Shown one piece after another: positions 10,866 through 51,103 of a DNA stretch of 64,000 nucleotides (the stretch's first letter is position 1; each line of letters begins with the position of its first letter). The position numbers were made by a program, and so were the translations under genes. The notes under the pieces are model-generated. The model made no database searches. It was given only the letters and a program-made list of their open reading frames with translations, and was not told the origin of the DNA. Origin of the DNA: Candidatus Moraniibacteriota bacterium (GTDB taxonomy: Bacteria; Patescibacteriota; Minisyncoccia; Moranbacterales; GCA-2747515); contig CP175956.1 of the NCBI GenBank assembly GCA_046116545.1, positions 160,276 through 224,275 of the forward strand, in the 5' to 3' direction.

Positions 10866-11471
10866 TTACTCTAAAATTCCATCCAAATTAACATCATATT
10901 GAATTTGTTCGCCTATCAAACGATAATCAATTAATTCACTTTTATCAAACCAAATTTTCGTCTCCCTTTCAGCTTCTTCTGGACAATCACTGCAATGGAT
11001 TAAGTTTCGTACTGCTCTTTCATCAACACCAGCTAAGTCATATGAATCGACTGTATAATCACCACGCACTGTTCCGACATCTGATGATAAAGGCTCTGTA
11101 GCTCCAACTAGCTTCGTCACAACTCCAACAGCCTTGTTACCTTCCAACACCATTGCAAGTACCGGACCAGATGTCATGAATGTCACTAATTGTTTTATAA
11201 TATCCTTTCCATAATCAATTTCATCCTTTTCAACTGGCACACCCGCCTCTTTACGAGCACTGGCAATATTTGCACCTTTTTCCAAAAACCAATCATCTGT
11301 TTTATTATAATGAGTCCAACATTGTTCTTCAGTGGGTACTAAAAATTTAAATCCTACAAATTTTAACCCAGTTCTCTCAAATCGTCCAACAATATCACCA
11401 ATCAATGCTCGTTGTACTCCATCAGGTTTAATTATTACAAAAGTTCTCTCTCTTCTTGATGTTTTGTCCAT
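10866..11471 (-). CDS. ndk: Nucleoside diphosphate kinase (long form with insertion)
   Basis: TFVIIKPDGVQRALIGDIVGRFERTGLKFVGFKF; 201 aa versus the typical ~140. Confidence 0.85.
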   Translation of the reverse strand: MDKTSRRERTFVIIKPDGVQRALIGDIVGRFERTGLKFVGFKFLVPTEEQCWTHYNKTDDWFLEKGANIASARKEAGVPVEKDEIDYGKDIIKQLVTFMTSGPVLAMVLEGNKAVGVVTKLVGATEPLSSDVGTVRGDYTVDSYDLAGVDERAVRNLIHCSDCPEEAERETKIWFDKSELIDYRLIGEQIQYDVNLDGILE

Positions 11472-14116: not shown

Positions 14117-14572
14117 TTAATCCTCCATTATCTCTTGAATAACTTTTCGAAAACTGTCCACAGAACCAACAGACTTATACACACTTGCAAATCGTATAAA
14201 TGCAACATCATCTACATCTCGCAACTTATTCATAATAATTTTACCTATTGCACGACTCTTCATTTCCCTCTTTTCTTTTGATTGAATTTCATATTCGATT
14301 TCTGAAATCAACTTTTCAATCTGTTCTTCCTTAACAGGCCGTTTTTTCAATGCCCTTCTAAGACCACTTTCAACTTTTTCTCTATTGTACTCTTCTTTTG
14401 TTCCATCACGCTTAACTACAGTTAACCTTAATAATTCGATTTCTTCATAAGTAGTAAATCTTTCACTACACTTTAAACATTCACGTCTACGACGAACAGC
14501 ACGACCTTTTTTTATACTTCTAGAATCAACAACTTTAGTTTGTTGAGGTTTTTTGCAAAATGGACATTTCAT
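14117..14572 (-). CDS. nrdR: Transcriptional repressor NrdR
   Basis: MKCPFCK...CLKC zinc ribbon, then an ATP-cone domain. Confidence 0.9.
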   Translation of the reverse strand: MKCPFCKKPQQTKVVDSRSIKKGRAVRRRRECLKCSERFTTYEEIELLRLTVVKRDGTKEEYNREKVESGLRRALKKRPVKEEQIEKLISEIEYEIQSKEKREMKSRAIGKIIMNKLRDVDDVAFIRFASVYKSVGSVDSFRKVIQEIMED

Positions 14573-21594: not shown

Positions 21595-22443
21595 TTAAGA
21601 CGATTGCCTCTTTGTTAATTCAACTATATTTTCAAGTAAACATGCGATCGTCACCGGACCTACACCTCCAGGAACTGGTGAAATTATAATTTCTCTATCT
21701 TCACAATCTATTATATCCACATCTCCAACAGTCTTATCTCCATCTTTACTAATACCTCCATCAATAATTATTGTATTATCACTTATCAAATCACAAGAAA
21801 GCAAATTCTTTTTACCACAAGCAGTAACTACTACATCCGATTCATTTATAGAAAGCTGCTCAGATGTACTGAATTCATCTTTATTTATACAAGATATAAA
21901 CTTAACATTTGCGCCCTCAACTTTAAATGCATGTGTCATCACATTGTCAAATACATCACTTTTTCCGATTATAGTAACTTTTTTATTTTCCAGACTTTCT
22001 AATTCACTATCAACTAAGCTCATGATAGCATTCGGGAAAACTGGATATATACATTCTTTATTATTTAAAAACCTCTCCTGGTTTACTTTATGAAATCCAT
22101 CAACATCCTTTTCTGGGTCTATAAAACCAATAACCTCATCAACATCCAACTGCTCAGGGAGTGGTAGTTGAACTATAATTCCATTTGTATCAACATCTTT
22201 ATTTAAAAATTCAATAGCACTTTTAACCTCATCCATCGAAATGTCTGTGTTAAAAGTATATTTTCTAAGTTCCACACCAATTTTCTTCGCCGCTCTTTCT
22301 TTTAATTTAACATACAAATGCGAAGCAGGATCATCACCAATAAGAACAACTGCCAAAGCAGGCTCAGCATCTAACTGACTCGCAATATCCTTAACGCCAA
22401 CAAGTTTTTTGGCAGCTATTTTTTTTCCATCTATAAACTTCAT
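21595..22443 (-). CDS. folD: Bifunctional methylenetetrahydrofolate dehydrogenase/cyclohydrolase
   Basis: IDGKKIAAK...AVVLIGDDPASHLYVKLKERAAKKIG...GGVGP. Confidence 0.9.
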   Translation of the reverse strand: MKFIDGKKIAAKKLVGVKDIASQLDAEPALAVVLIGDDPASHLYVKLKERAAKKIGVELRKYTFNTDISMDEVKSAIEFLNKDVDTNGIIVQLPLPEQLDVDEVIGFIDPEKDVDGFHKVNQERFLNNKECIYPVFPNAIMSLVDSELESLENKKVTIIGKSDVFDNVMTHAFKVEGANVKFISCINKDEFSTSEQLSINESDVVVTACGKKNLLSCDLISDNTIIIDGGISKDGDKTVGDVDIIDCEDREIIISPVPGGVGPVTIACLLENIVELTKRQSS

Positions 22444-41592: not shown

Positions 41593-42444
41593 ATGAAAAA
41601 AATTATGAAAAAATATTGTTATATTAATGGAAGAATTATAGAAGAAAAAAATGCTTGTATAAGTCCCCATGATCTAGGAGTACTGCGAGGCTATGGTGTA
41701 TTTGATTTTATGTGTACAGCTACTGAAAATAAACCCTTCCTGTTAACTGATCACTGGAATAGACTTGGTAGAAGTGCAAAATCATTAGGACTATTACTCC
41801 CTATTTCAAAAACTGAATATGAAAAAATAATAAATAAATTACTTACAAAAAACGGTTACAAAAATTCTGCAATTCGTACAGTTCTTACTGCTGGTGTCAG
41901 CAATAACGGTATCACGCTTCCCCAAAAACCAACTTTTTATATACTGATTCATAATATAACTAAAATGCTTCCTGAAAAAAAACTATATGAAAATGGTGCA
42001 AAAATAATAACACATGATTTTGCAAGAGATAATTATGCAAGTAAAACAACAAACTACATCGAAGCAATAAAAAATCAAAAAGAAAAAAATCGCCGTGGCG
42101 CAATAGAAATATTATATATAGATAAAAGTAATGTACTTGAATGTACAACTAGTAATATTTTTATTATCAAAAATAATAAACTGATGACACCATCTGAAGG
42201 TATTTTACCCGGAATAACTCGTAAATTAATATTAAAACTTGCTGAGAAAAATAAAATCAATGTTATCAAAGAGAAAATAACTAAAAAACAATTACTGAAT
42301 GCTGATGAAATCTTTTTAACAGGATCGGCTAAACACATTTTACCAATCACAAAAATAGACTCTCAAAAGATTGGTAATGGAAATGTCGGTAAATTAACGA
42401 AAGAAATTTCAACTCTATATTCTGATTATTTCAATAACTATTAA
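41593..42444 (+). CDS. Class IV (D-amino acid/branched-chain) aminotransferase family protein
   Basis: Fold-type IV PLP pattern: GVLRGYGVFDF...EIFLTGSA. Confidence 0.75.
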   Translation: MKKIMKKYCYINGRIIEEKNACISPHDLGVLRGYGVFDFMCTATENKPFLLTDHWNRLGRSAKSLGLLLPISKTEYEKIINKLLTKNGYKNSAIRTVLTAGVSNNGITLPQKPTFYILIHNITKMLPEKKLYENGAKIITHDFARDNYASKTTNYIEAIKNQKEKNRRGAIEILYIDKSNVLECTTSNIFIIKNNKLMTPSEGILPGITRKLILKLAEKNKINVIKEKITKKQLLNADEIFLTGSAKHILPITKIDSQKIGNGNVGKLTKEISTLYSDYFNNY

Positions 42445-42969: not shown

Positions 42970-43875
42970 CTATTTACATATACTAAACCACTCCTTTGTA
43001 TCTATACTATTTTCTGAAATAACCTCAGAGAATATGTCTTTTAATTCTTTCACACTTTTTGTATCAAATAGTATTTCCTGACCATCCTCTAAAACTATTT
43101 TTTTGATAGGTGTTATTTCAGAAGCAGTTCCTGTAAAAAAAGCTCCTTTAAATTTCTTTATATCCTTTGGAAATATCTCTATTTCACTAATTTCATAATT
43201 CAAATCTATACCTAACTCAATAACAGACTGTCTTGTTATACCTGCTAAGATCTTTCCTTTACGTGGAGTTATAATTTTTTTACCATCAACAAAAAATATA
43301 TTAGCTACAGATCCTTCTGCTATTGCGCCGTTATGATCCAATAGCAATGGCTCATCAAAGTTATTTTTCTTTGCGTCAGCAGATGCCATAAATGAATTAA
43401 TATAATGACCAGAAATTTTTGCATCACAGACAGTGCTTTTTTCTGATATTCTGGCAAATGGGGATATTTTGACATTTACCTCATCAGCTAAATATTTTGG
43501 CCAAGGAAATGCAGTTATGAAAATATTTGTTTTATTCATACCAATCCTCATGCCGAGTGCAGAGTCGTCAAAATAAATAAGTGGTCGTATGTACGCCGAT
43601 TCTAAATTATTTTTTTGCATTAAAACTTTACAAATTTCATTAATTTCATCCTTAGTTTCACTAATTTCTAATCCCAATTTATCAGCAGAATAAAATAATC
43701 TATTAGTATGCTCCTGCAATCTAAATATACCTGTTCCTTTTTTTATTTTATAAGCTCTAATTCCTTCAAAAACACCTGTTCCATAATGAAGTCCATGCGT
43801 CATAGGTGAGATATTAGCATCTTCTAATTTTAAATATTCACCATTTAAATAAACTATTAATTTTTTATCAAACAT
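42970..43875 (-). CDS. ilvE: Branched-chain-amino-acid aminotransferase-like (class IV)
   Basis: LNGEYLKLEDANISPMTHGLHYGTGVFEGIRAY. Confidence 0.8.
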   Translation of the reverse strand: MFDKKLIVYLNGEYLKLEDANISPMTHGLHYGTGVFEGIRAYKIKKGTGIFRLQEHTNRLFYSADKLGLEISETKDEINEICKVLMQKNNLESAYIRPLIYFDDSALGMRIGMNKTNIFITAFPWPKYLADEVNVKISPFARISEKSTVCDAKISGHYINSFMASADAKKNNFDEPLLLDHNGAIAEGSVANIFFVDGKKIITPRKGKILAGITRQSVIELGIDLNYEISEIEIFPKDIKKFKGAFFTGTASEITPIKKIVLEDGQEILFDTKSVKELKDIFSEVISENSIDTKEWFSICK

Positions 43876-43880
43876 ATTTA

Positions 43881-44678
43881 TTATCTAACAATATTATAAC
43901 TACCTAAAATTGTAACATCTACAAAAGTATTTAGAAATTCAAAAGCGTCTTTCATGTTTTCATCTTCCATGCATCCATCCAAATCCAAATAAAAAATATA
44001 ATCATTCATTTTTTCGCCTGTCGGAATTGATTCTATCTTTGTAAGGTTTAGATTCTTTATTTTAAAAACAGAAAGTATTTCAAATAAAAGACCTGATCTA
44101 TCCGTAGTTGGTTTTATAATTACAGAAGTTTTTTCTCCACTTGTTTTTTTAACTTTTTTAGATATTTCTATAAATCTAGTTACATTTTTATCTTTATTAC
44201 TTATATTTTGCTCTATTACACTTAATTTGTAATAATTTGCCGCATCATTACTGCCTATTGCTGCAATAGATGCATCGGCTGATGCTATTTCCATTGCTTT
44301 TGATGTTGAAGATGCTTCAATGACACTAATCCCCTGCTTACGCATTTCATCAACATATTCATTACATTGCACAAGTGCTTGTGCATGTGACATTATAGTT
44401 GTAAATTCATCTCCTTGAGAAGCTAATACATGCTCTATAGAATAATCAAAAGCATTTACTATACTTACCTCATTTTGCTGCAATGCCAAAAATGTTTCTC
44501 GCACAGAACCATTTATCATATTTTCTATAGGCACTATCCCATGACTAGTGTCTGATAAATTATCAAATACTGCACTTATTGTATCAACTGGTTCAATATC
44601 TAATTTTTCATAATTTACCAGTGCTACATTATAAGAATAACTAAATTTTGGACCAAGTGTAATTATTTTATCTATCAT
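43881..44678 (-). CDS. pheA: Prephenate dehydratase
   Basis: PDT domain plus C-terminal ACT domain (ESIPTGEK...YIFYLDLDG). Confidence 0.8.
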   Translation of the reverse strand: MIDKIITLGPKFSYSYNVALVNYEKLDIEPVDTISAVFDNLSDTSHGIVPIENMINGSVRETFLALQQNEVSIVNAFDYSIEHVLASQGDEFTTIMSHAQALVQCNEYVDEMRKQGISVIEASSTSKAMEIASADASIAAIGSNDAANYYKLSVIEQNISNKDKNVTRFIEISKKVKKTSGEKTSVIIKPTTDRSGLLFEILSVFKIKNLNLTKIESIPTGEKMNDYIFYLDLDGCMEDENMKDAFEFLNTFVDVTILGSYNIVR

Positions 44679-45505
44679 GATAATGTTTTTATTAATTTAT
44701 CTGTAATTTCCATTGAGCGCGTTGCCATATTTCCAAAATATTTTTTACTCTTACTGAAAATTTTATTAAACTTATTTTCATCAGATATATCAACTGATTG
44801 AAATAGCTCATCTACTGACTCTTTATATTTTATTGCAACCTCTTTTGCAAATGGATTATACATTTGCATATCAGTATAAAGATCTGCATCCTGTGCCAAT
44901 ATTCTACCAACTCCATACAATCTCATCAAATATACAGGAGTAGCTATTGATTCACCCACCTCTAAATTATAATGTAATTTTTCAAGAGTTGATCCAAGTG
45001 ATAATGCTGAAAAATGAGTAAGACATTGAATCACTGCCATATTTTTATCATGTTCTTCTTTTGTCATCTCCAAAACATTCAACCCAAGTGATTTCAAAAA
45101 ATTAATATACCAATCAGTATAACTTCCACCTTGCTCATTACAAATAATAAAGTTTTGTTTTTTGAAATCTGTTGTTGGACCAAATAATGGATGTCCTCCT
45201 ATGATTTCAATATCATCCCTTACTTCCTGTATCATTGCATCCATTGGCTTTATTTTAACAGATGTAAAATCTGTAACCATACTTCCCTTTTTCACAACTG
45301 GCATTATACTTTTAATAACTGCTTCAGTATCTCTAATCGGTACAGTAACTATTATAACATCACCGATTCTAGCAACTTCTTCATTTGTTAATTTAGTATC
45401 AGCATCCGCAATCAAAACTTCAAAGCCTCGCTTATGAAACTCATGGGCAAATTTACTACCCATTTTCCCATTACCTCCTATAATTGATATAATTTTTGGT
45501 TTCAT
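44675..45505 (-). CDS. tyrA: Prephenate dehydrogenase
   Basis: KIISIIGGNGKMGSKFA Rossmann motif; the 4-nt ATGA overlap with pheA points to an operon. Confidence 0.8.
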   Translation of the reverse strand: MKPKIISIIGGNGKMGSKFAHEFHKRGFEVLIADADTKLTNEEVARIGDVIIVTVPIRDTEAVIKSIMPVVKKGSMVTDFTSVKIKPMDAMIQEVRDDIEIIGGHPLFGPTTDFKKQNFIICNEQGGSYTDWYINFLKSLGLNVLEMTKEEHDKNMAVIQCLTHFSALSLGSTLEKLHYNLEVGESIATPVYLMRLYGVGRILAQDADLYTDMQMYNPFAKEVAIKYKESVDELFQSVDISDENKFNKIFSKSKKYFGNMATRSMEITDKLIKTLS

Positions 45506-48230: not shown

Positions 48231-48326
48231 TGTCTACTACATTTCACCTAATTCCATAAAAAATGAAAACCACCAGCAATACTGGTGGTTTTTGAAGGTA
48301 ATGAAAAAATCTAGCTTTTCTACCTT

Positions 48327-49682
48327 TTATTTCATCACAATATCATGTTCACCACGCCGCACATCAAAACGATTTGGTTCATCATCTTGATGCAAGACAA
48401 GTCCATTATCACCAAATAACTTCTTCATACTTTCTATCATCAACAACATTTGCGATACAAGTGTCGGATGCACAAATCTTGTTGAACGTAGTTCTACTAA
48501 ATACACAAGAGCTTTTAAATCACCAATTATTCTACATGGTACTCTATACCCCATTGCAGTATAATATTGAGATTCTTCCTTTGTCAGTTTTAATACATCA
48601 ATATCTTTTTCTTGCTGCAAAATGAATTCATCTGCTTTCTCTCGTAAATCTTTTGGTAATGCCTCTAAATACCACTTTTCAAAGCCATGCTCCCGCGTAA
48701 GGAGTGGCAACCTCTGCACAACAGCTCTATGTCTTTGCAAATCACGAAATGATCCAAAATCAAGTAGCAACTCATATCCTAATACACCACACTCAGCAAT
48801 AGTTGGCGGTAACTCTGTTTTCATTGGCCTATTTTGAATCTGACTTTCATGGTCTTTTAACATGTCACGATCCACATTATCAAAAAGCAATGTGAATTCA
48901 TTAATGTCAGAATTTGTATAATAATATTCATCTTGCATCCATTGTTTATTATAATTCTCCGTATTTTCAAATCGCTCATGACCAAAAGAACTTGAATACA
49001 TTTTTTCAAGAGCTTTTTCAGTTTTTTCTGCAATATCACGAACTTCTTCAAGTGGATGATGACGAAGGAGCATTAGCTCATCTGCAAACTGTCGAAAATT
49101 CATACGCCACGCAACATTAGTTGTTGCTCCAGCTGGCAAAAATGCTCTGGTTATATCAAATGCTCGTGCTGCAATTGCCTTGTCGTAAATCTTTTCTTTT
49201 TCACTATCTTTACACGGAAATTGTTTTTTAAGATGTTCTTGTATTGGCTTTTGTGCCTCCAAATAAAATGTACGCCAATTTTCCATTATTTTATCACCTT
49301 CATCACTCCCAGCAGGATTAAGAAATACTTGATCAGAAAAATCAACATATCTTGTTGATGCCTCTTGTCCAGAATATAACCGCCAATCTTGAATTGCTTT
49401 TGCAGCAAGCATTGAAATTCCTTCAACAAAGACAGTTGTACTTCCACAATCTCCAATTGATTTATGCCCATAGCCAACATAAAATTGCTCCATAAAGTTT
49501 TCAGCACCTCGTTCTTCCAATGTCTTAAGATGGTGATGAATACCCCCAGTTGAACGTGAATGTAATGCCTGCAACATCGCCTCTGCTTGAGCATCTATTT
49601 TTGCTTCATTATTAAGAACAAGTACAAATCCTCCTTTTTGTTCAAGATTTTCAATTGCATGTATTGATTTATCTTCTACCAT
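48327..49682 (-). CDS. thyX: Flavin-dependent thymidylate synthase ThyX-like, double-domain
   Basis: N-domain GHKSIGDCGSTTVFVEGIS...WRLYSGQEASTRY (S-x-RY present, RHR degenerate); C-domain FRDLQRHRAVVQRLP (RHR present, S-x-RY absent); next to tmk. Confidence 0.55.
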   Translation of the reverse strand: MVEDKSIHAIENLEQKGGFVLVLNNEAKIDAQAEAMLQALHSRSTGGIHHHLKTLEERGAENFMEQFYVGYGHKSIGDCGSTTVFVEGISMLAAKAIQDWRLYSGQEASTRYVDFSDQVFLNPAGSDEGDKIMENWRTFYLEAQKPIQEHLKKQFPCKDSEKEKIYDKAIAARAFDITRAFLPAGATTNVAWRMNFRQFADELMLLRHHPLEEVRDIAEKTEKALEKMYSSSFGHERFENTENYNKQWMQDEYYYTNSDINEFTLLFDNVDRDMLKDHESQIQNRPMKTELPPTIAECGVLGYELLLDFGSFRDLQRHRAVVQRLPLLTREHGFEKWYLEALPKDLREKADEFILQQEKDIDVLKLTKEESQYYTAMGYRVPCRIIGDLKALVYLVELRSTRFVHPTLVSQMLLMIESMKKLFGDNGLVLHQDDEPNRFDVRRGEHDIVMK

Positions 49683-49718
49683 ATAATTTTCCTTATATTA
49701 TTTAATATTTTATTAAAT

Positions 49719-50402
49719 TTAACATTTACAACATTCAACTACTTCTTCATGTATATCATCTATTGAACGTAATTCCTCATTTTTAACACATTGTATACGT
49801 ATCCAATTTTTATTCTCTCTAGAAAGCCATAAGGCACTTCTACGTGCATTCTCTAGATAGTCGATGCTTTGTTCAACTAAATCTTTTTTACCCTCTTTCT
49901 GATATTGTTTTTTTTGTTGTGATTGTCTCAATAATCCAATTGATGTTTTAATTGGAACATCTAAATAAATAACTTTATCTGGCTTAGGTAATTTAAAAAC
50001 TCCATATTCCATATTGTCTAACCATTTCAAGAATTCCTTTCGTTTATTTGAATCAAATATTTTTCCTCCTTGGTGAATTTGATTTGCACTTACATATCTA
50101 TCAAGTATAACCACACATCCTTCTTCCATCCATTTCTTCAATTTCTCAGATGATTCAAATCTGTCAGCAGCATAGATAATTGATGTAATATGTGGATCAA
50201 GCGTTAAAAAGTCTCCATAATCACCAGTAATACAACCACCAATAAATTCTCCAAAAAAATTATCTTCATATCTCGGAAAATCCATTGTCCTCACATTAAC
50301 ACCATCTTTTTTTAATTTTTTAACAATCAATTTAGTCTGCGTCGCTTTACCTGAACCATCAGAACCATCTATCACGATTAATCGTCCCTTACGTTTTTTC
50401 AT
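49719..50402 (-). CDS. tmk: Thymidylate kinase
   Basis: LIVIDGSDGSGKATQ is a P-loop; 227 aa. Confidence 0.8.
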   Translation of the reverse strand: MKKRKGRLIVIDGSDGSGKATQTKLIVKKLKKDGVNVRTMDFPRYEDNFFGEFIGGCITGDYGDFLTLDPHITSIIYAADRFESSEKLKKWMEEGCVVILDRYVSANQIHQGGKIFDSNKRKEFLKWLDNMEYGVFKLPKPDKVIYLDVPIKTSIGLLRQSQQKKQYQKEGKKDLVEQSIDYLENARRSALWLSRENKNWIRIQCVKNEELRSIDDIHEEVVECCKC

Positions 50403-50467
50403 CAGTAATTATTTAGACAAATAAAGACGGCTTTTCCAATTTCGAAACCGTCCCCCACTACAAAATA

Positions 50468-51103
50468 TTATAGCATACTACTTTTTATATTTTCAACTAT
50501 TTCTGGAAATTCTTCTTGCAAAAAATGATTTCTATCTTCAAATTCTACAAATACTGCGTTTGGTAATGCAACTTGATACTTTTTACCATCATCAAAACTC
50601 ACAACAAAATCATCTAGTGAATGATAAATATAAATATTATCACACTGATTCTCTACATTTTTCAAAGACTCTTGTAAATCAAAATCACCTTTAGCACCAT
50701 AACAACCAGCTACTAAATGCACTTGATTTATATCCACATCTAACATATTTTCTGCCAAATATTTTGCCAAAAAATTAGCACCTAGTGAATGTCCCACAAG
50801 AATAGCACCATCTACTACATACGGAAGTAATTTTTCAAACCAAATTAACCATTCATTATATTTTGCATTACGAGATGATGGCATTCCTGGTTTTATAACT
50901 TGAAAATTATCCCCAAGACTCTCTTGTAAGCTATCTTTCCATCGTCTTGATGTCACTTTATCAAATTTTTCTTGTGTAAAATCATAATTTTTTAAATACT
51001 CTATGTATTCATCATGTGTATCCCATGCGTCTCCACCATGAATTACTATTACTTGTTTTTTATTTCGTCCACTATAATCTTTGACACGGATTTGATTATT
51101 CAT
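50468..51103 (-). CDS. Alpha/beta serine hydrolase (YdeN/RBBP9-like)
   Basis: VIVIHGGDAW...ILVGHSLGANFLAKYL (GHSLG nucleophile elbow). Confidence 0.7.
   Translation of the reverse strand: MNNQIRVKDYSGRNKKQVIVIHGGDAWDTHDEYIEYLKNYDFTQEKFDKVTSRRWKDSLQESLGDNFQVIKPGMPSSRNAKYNEWLIWFEKLLPYVVDGAILVGHSLGANFLAKYLAENMLDVDINQVHLVAGCYGAKGDFDLQESLKNVENQCDNIYIYHSLDDFVVSFDDGKKYQVALPNAVFVEFEDRNHFLQEEFPEIVENIKSSML

What the first reader, a model, noticed from the sequence alone, without database searches (positions are those of the whole stretch)
48327..50402. Double-length ThyX-like protein with complementary degenerate active-site motifs, adjacent to tmk
The 451-aa protein contains two ThyX-like halves. The N-terminal half keeps the S-x-RY part of the ThyX signature (WRLYSGQEASTRY), but the RHR triad is replaced by RLY. 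The C-terminal half keeps RHR (LQRHRAVVQ) but lacks S-x-RY. In canonical ThyX the active site is assembled from residues contributed by different subunits. A fused pseudo-dimer with complementary motif loss would be a neat single-chain solution. Placement beside thymidylate kinase supports a dTMP-synthesis role.
Basis: partly seen in the sequence, partly recalled or inferred. Interest (0 to 1): 0.55.

Follow-up and report, generated by a model that had tools for sequence, protein, structure and literature searches.

The report
Tandem ThyX thymidylate synthase, split active-site motifs
This gene encodes a double-length version of the flavin-dependent thymidylate synthase ThyX in which each half has kept only part of the catalytic residues, so the enzyme should have half the usual number of active sites; the form is common in tiny CPR bacteria and large phages and I found no published description of it.

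Summary
ORF 48327-49682(-) encodes 451 aa, 36 nt downstream of tmk. Pfam detects only one Thy1 domain (residues 46-227). However, an AlphaFold model of the C-terminal part on its own matches only ThyX structures, so both halves have the ThyX fold.

Across 130 diverse relatives the catalytic residues are divided cleanly between the halves:
- The N-half has lost RHR (D-x-P; DWR here, not "RLY") and Arg174. It keeps His53, the GHxS Ser, Glu86, Ser88, Arg90, Tyr91, Glu144, Arg147 and Arg165.
- The C-half keeps RHR and Arg174 (100%) and has lost the others.

In canonical ThyX these groups come from three different subunits. A complete site here therefore needs one C-half and two N-halves. This implies a homodimer acting as a pseudo-tetramer, with two live and two dead sites (inferred, not shown).

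Gene neighbourhoods in 80 CPR genomes support dTMP synthesis: Tmk, dCMP deaminase, dUTPase, Dcd and SHMT recur, and one genome has a thyA remnant beside the gene.

The family is large: at least 587 CPR species and at least 106 large viral contigs, including Vibrio phage BONAISHI and Microcystis phage Ma-LMM01. No solved structure and no paper on the tandem form were found. I class it as a new variant of a known kind, of moderate interest.

The parts
48327..49682 (-). Tandem (double-length) ThyX gene, 451 aa plus stop
   Evidence: ORF list. Identical to an NCBI/JGI protein from a Ca. Moraniibacteriota contig of 1.29 Mb. AF2 model has pLDDT 94.9 and pTM 0.91.
48969..49682 (-). N-terminal ThyX half (residues 1-238). 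It carries the residues that canonical ThyX supplies from its second and third subunits.
   Evidence: Pfam Thy1 E 4.7e-19 over residues 46-227. hhalign against T. maritima ThyX E 3e-4 over 198 columns.
48327..48968 (-). C-terminal ThyX half (residues 239-451). It carries RHR and the Arg174 equivalent.
   Evidence: No Pfam or PDB sequence hit. The AF2 model of residues 280-451 matches ThyX chains only. hhalign against T. maritima ThyX E 2.9e-3 over 169 columns.
49458..49466 (-). H73-K74-S75. Equivalent to T. maritima H53 and to the GHxS serine (M. tuberculosis S71), which contact the flavin and the FAD phosphate.
   Evidence: Alignment. H73 is kept in 126/130 and S75 in 130/130 relatives. Codons checked.
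49380..49388 (-). D99-W100-R101: the degenerate position of the canonical RHR triad in the N-half
   Evidence: Alignments. The family has D, variable, P at these positions.
49347..49364 (-). E107-A-S109-T-R111-Y112: the retained E..S-x-R-Y part of the ThyX signature (T. maritima E86, S88, R90, Y91)
   Evidence: E107 127/130, S109 130/130, R111 130/130, Y112 126/130.
49146..49157 (-). D176-I-T-R179: equivalents of T. maritima E144 and R147
   Evidence: hhalign. D176 130/130 and R179 120/130.
48726..48746 (-). R313-D-L-Q-R317-H318-R319: the retained RHR triad and preceding Arg in the C-half
   Evidence: R313, D314, R317 and R319 are each 130/130; H318 is 113/130. The stretch aligns to T. maritima R74..R78-H79-R80.
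48468..48494 (-). E397-L398-R399 ... H405: equivalents of T. maritima L173-R174 (the dUMP-activating Arg) and H178
   Evidence: R399 and H405 are each 130/130. hhalign matches ELR to NLR174.
49719..50402 (-). tmk (dTMP kinase), 227 aa, immediately upstream on the same strand
   Evidence: Pfam Thymidylate_kin 1.5e-20 and NCBIfam dTMP kinase models.
50467..50496 (-). Promoter-like site upstream of tmk (TTGAAA, 18 nt spacer, TG, TATAAT)
   Evidence: Consensus scan, 11 of 12 matches. This is only a pattern match.
49690..49694 (-). AAGGA ribosome-binding-like site, 7 nt before the ATG of the tandem ThyX gene, in the 36-nt gap after tmk
   Evidence: Sequence read.
48266..48292 (-). Terminator-like hairpin (12-bp stem followed by a T run) 35 nt after the stop codon
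   Evidence: Consensus scan.

Best explanation
The gene encodes a flavin-dependent thymidylate synthase (ThyX/FDTS) made of two tandem, highly diverged ThyX domains in one chain.

Each canonical ThyX active site is built by three subunits:
- One supplies RHR and Arg174, which bind FAD and activate dUMP.
- A second supplies the GHxS serine and Arg165, which bind the FAD phosphates.
- A third supplies Ser88, Arg90 and Tyr91, which bind dUMP and support catalysis.

In this family the C-terminal domain keeps only the first set. The N-terminal domain keeps only the second and third sets.

A complete site therefore needs one C-domain and two different N-domains. Two chains should pair into a pseudo-222 'tetramer' of four domains, with two complete and two extinct active sites. 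The true two-fold axis would relate like domains.

The enzyme would methylate dUMP with CH2-THF, FAD and NAD(P)H. It would hand dTMP to the co-transcribed Tmk and then to Ndk.

What is shown: the two ThyX folds, the residue partition and the pathway context. What is inferred: the dimeric assembly, the number of sites and the activity.
For: Fold:
- Full model pLDDT 94.9 and pTM 0.91.
- PDB Foldseek gives only ThyX above E 0.001 (23 matches), and rows 24-50 of the list shown are ThyX too.
- The C-half modelled alone matches only ThyX.
- hhalign of the C-half profile to T. maritima ThyX places FRDLQRHR on ARQWFRHR and ELR399 on NLR174. The T. maritima sequence was verified against PDB 1kq4.

Residue partition in 130 relatives down to 34% identity:
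- N-half: H73 126, S75 130, E107 127, S109 130, R111 130, Y112 126, D176 130, R179 120, R197 108. The RHR position is D/x/P, and the R174 position is gapped in the alignment to T. maritima ThyX; the neighbouring R207 is Arg in only 36/130.
- C-half: R317 130, H318 113, R319 130, R399 130, H405 130. It has no equivalents of H53, S88, R90, Y91, R147 or R165.

Subunit roles come from the review of the M. tuberculosis and H. pylori structures (PMC6514825 section 3.1). Roles of S88, R90, Y91, R174 and H53 come from PMC8316439 and PMC11940539.

Context:
- The window shows a tmk-thyX bicistron-like layout, with FolD, Ndk and NrdR elsewhere in the window.
- In 80 CPR loci, within 3.5 kb: Tmk in 58, dCMP deaminase in 30, dUTPase in 23, Dcd in 20, SHMT in 18 and MazG in 16.
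- In L065 the gene is followed by a thyA remnant (only the last 62 profile positions) and a DHFR-like gene. This looks like in-situ displacement of thyA.
Against: - No coordinates of the model were available, so I could not check that the intrachain N-C packing reproduces a ThyX dimer interface. I also could not check that S109/R111 approach R317/R399.
- No multimer prediction or biochemistry was possible.
- Pfam and PDB sequence searches do not detect the C-half.
- The N-versus-C profile comparison is weak (E 0.005).
- TIGR02170 scores 39 bits against a cutoff of 87.9.
- Several invariant C-half residues have no canonical counterpart and no assigned role: R285, W337, Y338, Q372, Y373, Y394, R443.
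- Whether the genome lacks thyA or another thyX outside the 64-kb window was not testable.
- The subunit assignment rests on one review's description of the M. tuberculosis and H. pylori structures.
Confidence: 0.7

Rival explanations
1. This is a neofunctionalised ThyX paralogue that uses the same chemistry on another substrate or gives another product. Examples would be UMP or dCMP methylation, or a modified pyrimidine nucleotide for phage DNA. It would not be a housekeeping dTMP synthase.
For: - A ThyX paralogue with altered specificity exists: PolB, which methylates UMP and dUMP (PMC5954106).
- The family is frequent in jumbo phages and giant-virus bins.
- tmk linkage is rare there, at 2 of 80 viral loci.
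- The protein falls far below the TIGR02170 equivalog cutoff.
- There are invariant C-half residues without a canonical role.
Against: - All canonical dUMP, FAD and folate-site residues are kept once per chain.
- In CPR genomes the gene sits with Tmk, the dUMP-producing enzymes (dCMP deaminase, dUTPase, Dcd) and SHMT.
- A thyA remnant lies next to it in L065.
- No other thymidylate synthase was seen in the window or in 80 CPR loci.
Confidence: 0.12
2. The chain works as a self-contained monomeric pseudo-dimer with one active site formed only by its own N- and C-halves. No chain-chain pairing would be needed.
For: - The fusion places one RHR/R174 domain and one S-x-R-Y domain in one chain.
- The model is a compact two-domain body (pTM 0.91).
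Against: - Canonical sites need three subunits.
- The residues of the second subunit (S75, R197) and of the third (S109, R111, Y112) both lie in the N-half. In the canonical geometry they come from two different subunits. One N-half cannot fill both roles for the same site.
Confidence: 0.12
3. Only one half is functional. The other is a decayed, purely structural appendage or a pseudo-enzyme domain, and the protein does not need a composite site.
For: The C-half is invisible to sequence HMMs, which could be read as decay.
Against: - Neither half has a full residue set.
- The C-half carries invariant RHR and R399, which are absent from the N-half.
- Both halves are equally conserved (83-71% identity within Moranbacteria).
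- The 16 invariant columns found among 104 diverse sequences are spread over both halves.
Confidence: 0.04

Closest known systems
Canonical ThyX / FDTS (T. maritima TM0449, M. tuberculosis Rv2754c, H. pylori, PBCV-1 A674R; EC 2.1.1.148; Pfam PF02511)
   Same: - Same fold in both halves.
- Same catalytic residue inventory: H53, R78-H79-R80, E86, S88, R90, Y91, E144, R147, R165, R174 and H178 equivalents.
- Same pathway context with Tmk, dUMP suppliers and SHMT.
   Different: - Canonical enzymes are chains of about 190-320 aa that form homotetramers with four identical sites. Each chain carries the whole RHRx7SxRY signature.
- Here two domains are fused in one 451-aa chain and the signature is split between them.
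- The prediction is two live and two dead sites per four-domain particle.
- The protein is below the TIGR02170 cutoff, and the second domain is undetectable by Pfam.
Phage members of the same tandem family: Vibrio phage BONAISHI ORF269 ('thymidilate synthase-like protein', 480 aa), Vibrio phages vB_VmeM-Yong, Microcystis phage Ma-LMM01 gp020 ('thymidylate synthase', 491 aa)
   Same: - Full-length relatives: 33% identity over 93-94% of the query for the Vibrio phages.
- Structural match TM 0.88 over 452 columns for a BFVD protein with no name at hand (A0A6B7EUB9), and TM 0.70 over 477 columns for the Ma-LMM01 protein.
- Same split motif pattern.
   Different: - They are viral and only 18-33% identical.
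- They are rarely next to tmk.
- They carry an annotation by similarity only. I found no experimental work or description of the tandem architecture.
PolB, the ThyX paralogue of polyoxin biosynthesis (Streptomyces)
   Same: It is a diverged ThyX homologue that shows the fold can change specificity (PMC5954106).
   Different: It is described in the review as a second thyX gene of some Streptomyces. From my own recollection it is a single-domain protein that keeps the full motif in one chain. It sits in an antibiotic gene cluster, not with tmk, dcd, dut or glyA.
ThyA (classical thymidylate synthase)
   Same: It makes the same predicted product. One Dojkabacteria genome shows the tandem thyX sitting where most of a thyA gene has been lost.
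   Different: The fold and chemistry are unrelated. ThyA is a homodimer and produces DHF, so it needs DHFR.
Long (~530 aa) chlamydial ThyX (recalled from memory only)
   Same: It is about twice the canonical length, so it may also contain two ThyX-like domains.
   Different: Not tested. I could not retrieve a chlamydial sequence or the 2005 JBC paper. No chlamydial protein appeared among the named hits of either homology search.

Membership tests
ThyX / flavin-dependent thymidylate synthase (Pfam PF02511 Thy1) | ThyX fold | tested here: met
   The N-half gives Pfam Thy1 at 69.3 bits against a cutoff of 24.8. Foldseek of the full model and of the C-half model returns ThyX chains only.
ThyX / flavin-dependent thymidylate synthase | ThyX signature RHRx7S(xRY) contained in one domain | tested here: not met
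   No domain has the whole signature. The N-half has DWR...STRY and the C-half has RHR with no following S-x-R-Y. The signature is complete only across the two halves.
ThyX / flavin-dependent thymidylate synthase | Full set of catalytic and ligand-binding residues (T. maritima H53, R78, H79, R80, E86, S88, R90, Y91, E144, R147, R165, R174, H178) | tested here: met
   Each is present once per chain and conserved at 83-100% across 130 relatives, divided between the halves.
ThyX / flavin-dependent thymidylate synthase | Curated equivalog model TIGR02170 (thyX) above its trusted cutoff | tested here: not met
   39.3 bits against a cutoff of 87.9, covering the N-half only.
ThyX / flavin-dependent thymidylate synthase | [quoted passage not shown] | not testable with these tools
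The residue partition predicts a dimer of two-domain chains with two complete sites (inference).
ThyX / flavin-dependent thymidylate synthase | FAD-bound enzyme converting dUMP, CH2-THF and NAD(P)H to dTMP | not testable with these tools
   This needs biochemistry or genetic complementation.
ThyX / flavin-dependent thymidylate synthase | Genomic association with the dTMP pathway | tested here: met
   tmk is adjacent in the window. In 80 CPR loci: Tmk in 58, dCMP deaminase in 30, dUTPase in 23, Dcd in 20 and SHMT in 18. A thyA remnant lies beside the gene in L065.
PolB-type ThyX paralogue (nucleoside-antibiotic UMP methylase) | Location in a nucleoside-antibiotic biosynthetic cluster alongside a housekeeping thymidylate synthase | tested here: not met
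   The neighbours are housekeeping nucleotide and translation genes. No second thymidylate synthase was found in the window or in 80 loci.

The most novel reading that the evidence does not exclude
The two 'extinct' sites of the pseudo-tetramer may not be dead. They may have been rebuilt into a new pocket, for example a dedicated NAD(P)H or regulatory nucleotide site. In that case the enzyme would separate its reductive and methylating half-reactions, or gain allosteric control, in a way no homotetrameric ThyX can. The idea is prompted by family-invariant C-half residues with no canonical counterpart: R285, W337, Y338, Q372, Y373, Y394, R409 and R443-G444.
Probability: 0.12. Interest if true: 0.75.

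Novelty: new variant of a known kind. Interest (0 to 1): 0.5.

Why it matters
- **Enzymology.** ThyX is described, up to a 2023 paper from the laboratory that discovered it, as an obligate homotetramer with four three-subunit active sites. A natural single-chain hetero-pair with a clean division of catalytic residues would show that two sites per particle suffice. It would provide an intrinsically asymmetric scaffold for studying cross-subunit catalysis and half-site behaviour. It would also test the published subunit assignments of residues independently.
- **Annotation.** The second domain is invisible to Pfam, and the protein fails the TIGRFAM equivalog cutoff. Strict pipelines could therefore report CPR bacteria as unable to make thymidylate. 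Here the protein sits in a dcd/dut/dCMP-deaminase-thyX-tmk-glyA context that argues for de novo dTMP synthesis in these reduced genomes.
- **Evolution.** The shared presence in Patescibacteria, jumbo phages, a cyanophage and giant-virus bins points to gene exchange between these groups.

Tried and rejected
**Sequence detection of the second domain**
- BLASTP of the N-half against the C-half found nothing.
- hhalign with a shallow alignment found nothing. With 130 diverse sequences it gave only E 0.005.
- Pfam on the C-half alone found nothing at E<=10.
- A PDB profile search with a C-half alignment was not significant; PBCV-1 ThyX appeared at E 0.56.

**Structure libraries**
- The afdb50 fold library was not available.
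- Model coordinates are not exposed, so no distances or superpositions on a ThyX tetramer could be made.

**Literature**
- Searches for two-domain, tandem or fused ThyX, for ThyX in CPR/Patescibacteria and for the chlamydial enzyme gave nothing relevant.
- Leduc 2004 (PNAS), a PMC id I took for the folate-binding-site paper (Koehn 2012) and Griffin 2005 (JBC) are not held.

**Names and wider relatives**
- Cluster look-up of ten distant representatives returned no names.
- A second homology search seeded with the phage protein returned only CPR names and no characterised protein.

**Hypothesis of natural two-gene (unfused) forms**
- Rejected on the one case examined. The short representative P0247 in L164 is a frameshifted copy: in L164 the conserved linker 'SFTHKRYADTEDYNAFWM' continues in another frame.
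- P0143 (L165) shows overlapping gene calls that suggest the same, but its sequence could not be read.

**Second thymidylate synthase nearby**
- tblastn with E. coli ThyA and T. maritima ThyX found none in the window. In 81 CPR loci the only hit was the thyA remnant in L065.
Full report
**What is there**

The window is low-GC (about 32%) and carries housekeeping genes of a Patescibacteria (CPR) bacterium. The 451-aa product of ORF 48327..49682(-) is identical to a protein recorded from a 1.29-Mb Candidatus Moraniibacteriota contig.

Upstream on the same strand, 36 nt away, lies a 227-aa dTMP kinase at 49719..50402 (Pfam Thymidylate_kin 1.5e-20). Several pattern matches frame the two genes like a bicistronic unit. 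These are pattern matches only.
- A promoter-like site with an extended -10 at 50496-50467.
- An AAGGA site 7 nt before the ATG.
- A 12-bp hairpin with a T-run at 48292-48266.

**Checking the observation**

Pfam finds one Thy1 domain, at residues 46-227 (E 4.7e-19). TIGR02170 (thyX equivalog) scores only 39 bits against a cutoff of 87.9. PDB sequence search finds ThyX chains weakly, for the N-half only.

The C-half (residues 239-451) gives no Pfam hit even at E<=10. A profile of it finds nothing significant in the PDB.

Structure prediction changes this picture.
- With an alignment of 104 diverse relatives, the full chain models at pLDDT 94.9 and pTM 0.91.
- The secondary-structure order of the two halves is parallel. 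In the N-half it runs strand 81-90, helix 91-98, [RHR position], strand 104-107 ... strand 186-195, helix 196-206, helix 212-228. In the C-half it runs strand 300-308, helix 309-315, [RHR]... strand 379-388, helix 389-399, helix 406-426.
- Residues 280-451 modelled alone (pLDDT 91.6) match ThyX chains and nothing else at the top of the PDB list. There are 128 hits at E<=0.001, the best E is 2e-5, TM is about 0.6 and 135-162 columns align.
- A family profile of the C-half aligns to T. maritima ThyX over 169 columns (E 2.9e-3). It places FRDLQRHR on ARQWFRHR and ELR399 on NLR174. I recalled the T. maritima sequence from memory and verified it as identical to PDB 1kq4_A.

Both halves are therefore ThyX domains.

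The quoted motifs are present. The RHR-equivalent triplet of the N-half is D99-W100-R101, fixed by the 10-residue spacing to S109 and by the alignments. It is not 'RLY'.

**The family**

The protein belongs to a large, old family of proteins of about 430-500 aa.
- About 4000 close homologues, more than 70% identical within Moranbacteria.
- 472 representatives of 50%-identity clusters at E<=1e-30, reaching down to 34% identity.
- At least 587 species-level genomes. The best 80 are nearly all labelled as Patescibacteria lineages (Moran-, Pacei-, Kaiser-, Uhr-, Dojka-, Komeilibacteria and others); a minority carry other, probably wrong, labels.

It is also viral.
- Vibrio jumbo phages BONAISHI and Yong carry relatives at 33% identity over 93-94% of the query.
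- At least 106 IMG/VR contigs carry it, mostly longer than 100 kb, including giant-virus bins.
- A BFVD protein matches at TM 0.88 over 452 columns.
- Microcystis phage Ma-LMM01 gp020 (491 aa) matches at TM 0.70 over 477 columns.

Sources name these proteins 'FAD-dependent thymidylate synthase', 'ThyX' or 'hypothetical'. No PDB chain aligns over more than about 260 columns, so this architecture has no solved structure.

**The residue partition**

I mapped canonical functional residues (T. maritima numbering) onto both halves and counted them in 130 diverse relatives.

| T. maritima residue | N-half | C-half |
|---|---|---|
| H53 | H73, 126/130 | lost |
| GHxS Ser (M. tuberculosis S71) | S75, 130 | lost |
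| R78-H79-R80 | D / variable / P | R317 130, H318 113 (+16 Q), R319 130 |
| E86 | E107, 127 | not assessed |
| S88 | S109, 130 | lost (P326) |
| R90 | R111, 130 | lost (L328) |
| Y91 | Y112, 126 | lost (T329) |
| E144 | D176, 130 | not assessed |
| R147 | R179, 120 | lost (Y373) |
| R165 | R197, 108 | lost (L389) |
| R174 | gapped in the alignment to T. maritima; neighbouring R207 is Arg in only 36/130 | R399, 130 |
| H178 | H209, 121 | H405, 130 |

The C-half also has R313 and D314 invariant just before its RHR. The phage proteins show the same pattern.

**How it most likely works**

A review of the M. tuberculosis and H. pylori structures (PMC6514825) describes each ThyX site as built from three subunits.
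- Subunit A gives RHR to FAD and dUMP, plus R199 (T. maritima R174) to dUMP.
- Subunit B gives S71 and R190 (T. maritima R165) to the FAD phosphates.
- Subunit C gives S105, R107 and Y108 (T. maritima S88, R90, Y91) to dUMP.

R174 activates dUMP. S88, R90 and Y91 drive consumption of the flavin carbinolamine. H53 stacks on the flavin (PMC8316439 and PMC11940539).

In the tandem family every A-role residue is in the C-half. Every B- and C-role residue is in the N-half. In a 222 particle the B and C partners of a given A subunit are two different subunits. A live site therefore needs one C-half and two N-halves, which means two chains.

The symmetry works out if the true two-fold axis relates like halves. 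The two sites seeded by C-halves are then complete. The two seeded by N-halves have lost all three residue sets at once. This explains why the losses are complementary: selection kept two of the four sites and released the other two.

This assembly is inferred. I could not obtain model coordinates or run a multimer prediction.

**Function**

The context argues for genuine dTMP synthesis. The window holds tmk next door, and also FolD at 21595-22443, Ndk at 10866-11471 and NrdR at 14117-14572.

In 80 CPR loci, the genes within 3.5 kb include the following:

| Neighbour | Loci (of 80) |
|---|---|
| Tmk | 58 |
| P-loop (d)NMP-kinase-like protein | 35 |
| dCMP deaminase | 30 |
| dUTPase | 23 |
| dCTP-deaminase-like | 20 |
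| SHMT | 18 |
| MazG | 16 |

By the less sensitive tblastn check, Tmk is directly adjacent in 24 loci, in several orders and orientations. These neighbours are the suppliers of dUMP and CH2-THF and the consumer of dTMP.

In a Dojkabacteria genome (L065) the gene is followed 10 bp later by a thyA remnant and then by a DHFR-like gene. The remnant retains only Pfam positions 205-266 of 266. This is a footprint of thyA being displaced in place.

No thyA or second thyX occurs in the window or in the other 80 CPR loci held.

**Rivals**

- Neofunctionalisation, as in PolB, cannot be excluded for the viral members, where tmk linkage is rare. It is unlikely for CPR.
- A self-sufficient monomer conflicts with the three-subunit geometry.
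- A 'one live half plus decayed appendage' model conflicts with the invariance of RHR and R399 in the C-half and their absence from the N-half.

**Comparison with what is known, and novelty**

The protein works like ThyX and is a diverged member of the Thy1 superfamily. It fails two formal marks of the family as usually defined: the whole ThyX signature in one domain, and the TIGR02170 cutoff.

Reviews, and a 2023 paper from the laboratory that discovered ThyX, describe ThyX only as a homotetramer. My searches of the held literature found no account of a tandem or fused ThyX. From memory, chlamydial ThyX proteins are also about twice the normal length. I could not test whether they are related, and none appeared among named hits.

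I rate the finding a new variant of a known kind. The annotation 'thymidylate synthase' stands. The architecture, the split signature and the predicted half-complement of sites appear undescribed.

**Limits**

- No biochemistry was possible.
- No quaternary model could be built.
- The subunit assignment comes from one review.
- Genome-wide absence of other thymidylate synthases was not checked.

Noticed in passing
L065:4950-8055 (JAYRWD010000044.1, Ca. Dojkabacteria MAG): The tandem thyX is followed 10 bp later by a 92-aa ORF that holds only the last 62 positions of the ThyA profile (Pfam Thymidylat_synt E 4e-20, positions 205-266 of 266). A DHFR/RibD_C-like gene lies 1 kb further on. This looks like an in-situ displacement of thyA.
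   Followed up: partly
window:21595-22443(-), 10866-11471(-), 14117-14572(-): FolD (methylene-THF dehydrogenase/cyclohydrolase), nucleoside diphosphate kinase and NrdR lie in the same window. The genome therefore has a source of CH2-THF, the last kinase step to dTTP and a regulator of ribonucleotide reductase.
   Followed up: partly
window:48456-48476 (residues 402-409 of the tandem ThyX): Position 409 is Arg in 121/130 diverse relatives but Val in the query, and it is invariant Val in the aligned close relatives (71-83% identical). Those close relatives instead have an invariant Arg at 402, which is K/Q/P elsewhere. This may be a lineage-specific relocation of a conserved Arg on the helix after H405.
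   Followed up: no
L164:3001-4370 and L165:29-1337: Two short 'half-length' representatives of the family turned out to be one gene broken into two overlapping gene calls. In L164 the conserved linker continues in another frame, which shows a frameshift (assembly error or pseudogene). L165's sequence could not be read. In L165 a thymidine kinase and a Tmk follow the gene.
   Followed up: partly
window:58945-63669(-): A 1574-aa ORF made of 11 DUF285 repeats (Pfam bit score 1087) plus DUF5122 beta-propeller repeats. It is probably a large repeat protein.
   Followed up: no
L034:4425-4973 and 34 other CPR loci; L065:4015-4611: A small P-loop kinase recurs next to the tandem thyX in 35 of 80 CPR loci. 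It gives weak Pfam hits to AAA_17/AAA_18, CoaE and deoxynucleotide monophosphate kinase. It may be a second (d)NMP kinase of the same pathway.
   Followed up: no
window:41593-45505: Two class-IV aminotransferase genes (41593-42444 +, 42970-43875 -) flank a phosphoesterase gene and lie next to prephenate dehydratase (43881-44678) and prephenate dehydrogenase (44675-45505). This aromatic amino-acid branch is somewhat unexpected in a reduced CPR genome.
   Followed up: no
BFVD hit A0A127AWA5 (Bacillus phage SP-15, 413 aa) and other 370-510-aa phage 'ThyX-like' proteins: Several other phage ThyX-like proteins are much longer than canonical ThyX and align over 380-450 columns at low TM (0.25-0.45). 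Other extended or duplicated ThyX architectures may exist in phages.
   Followed up: no
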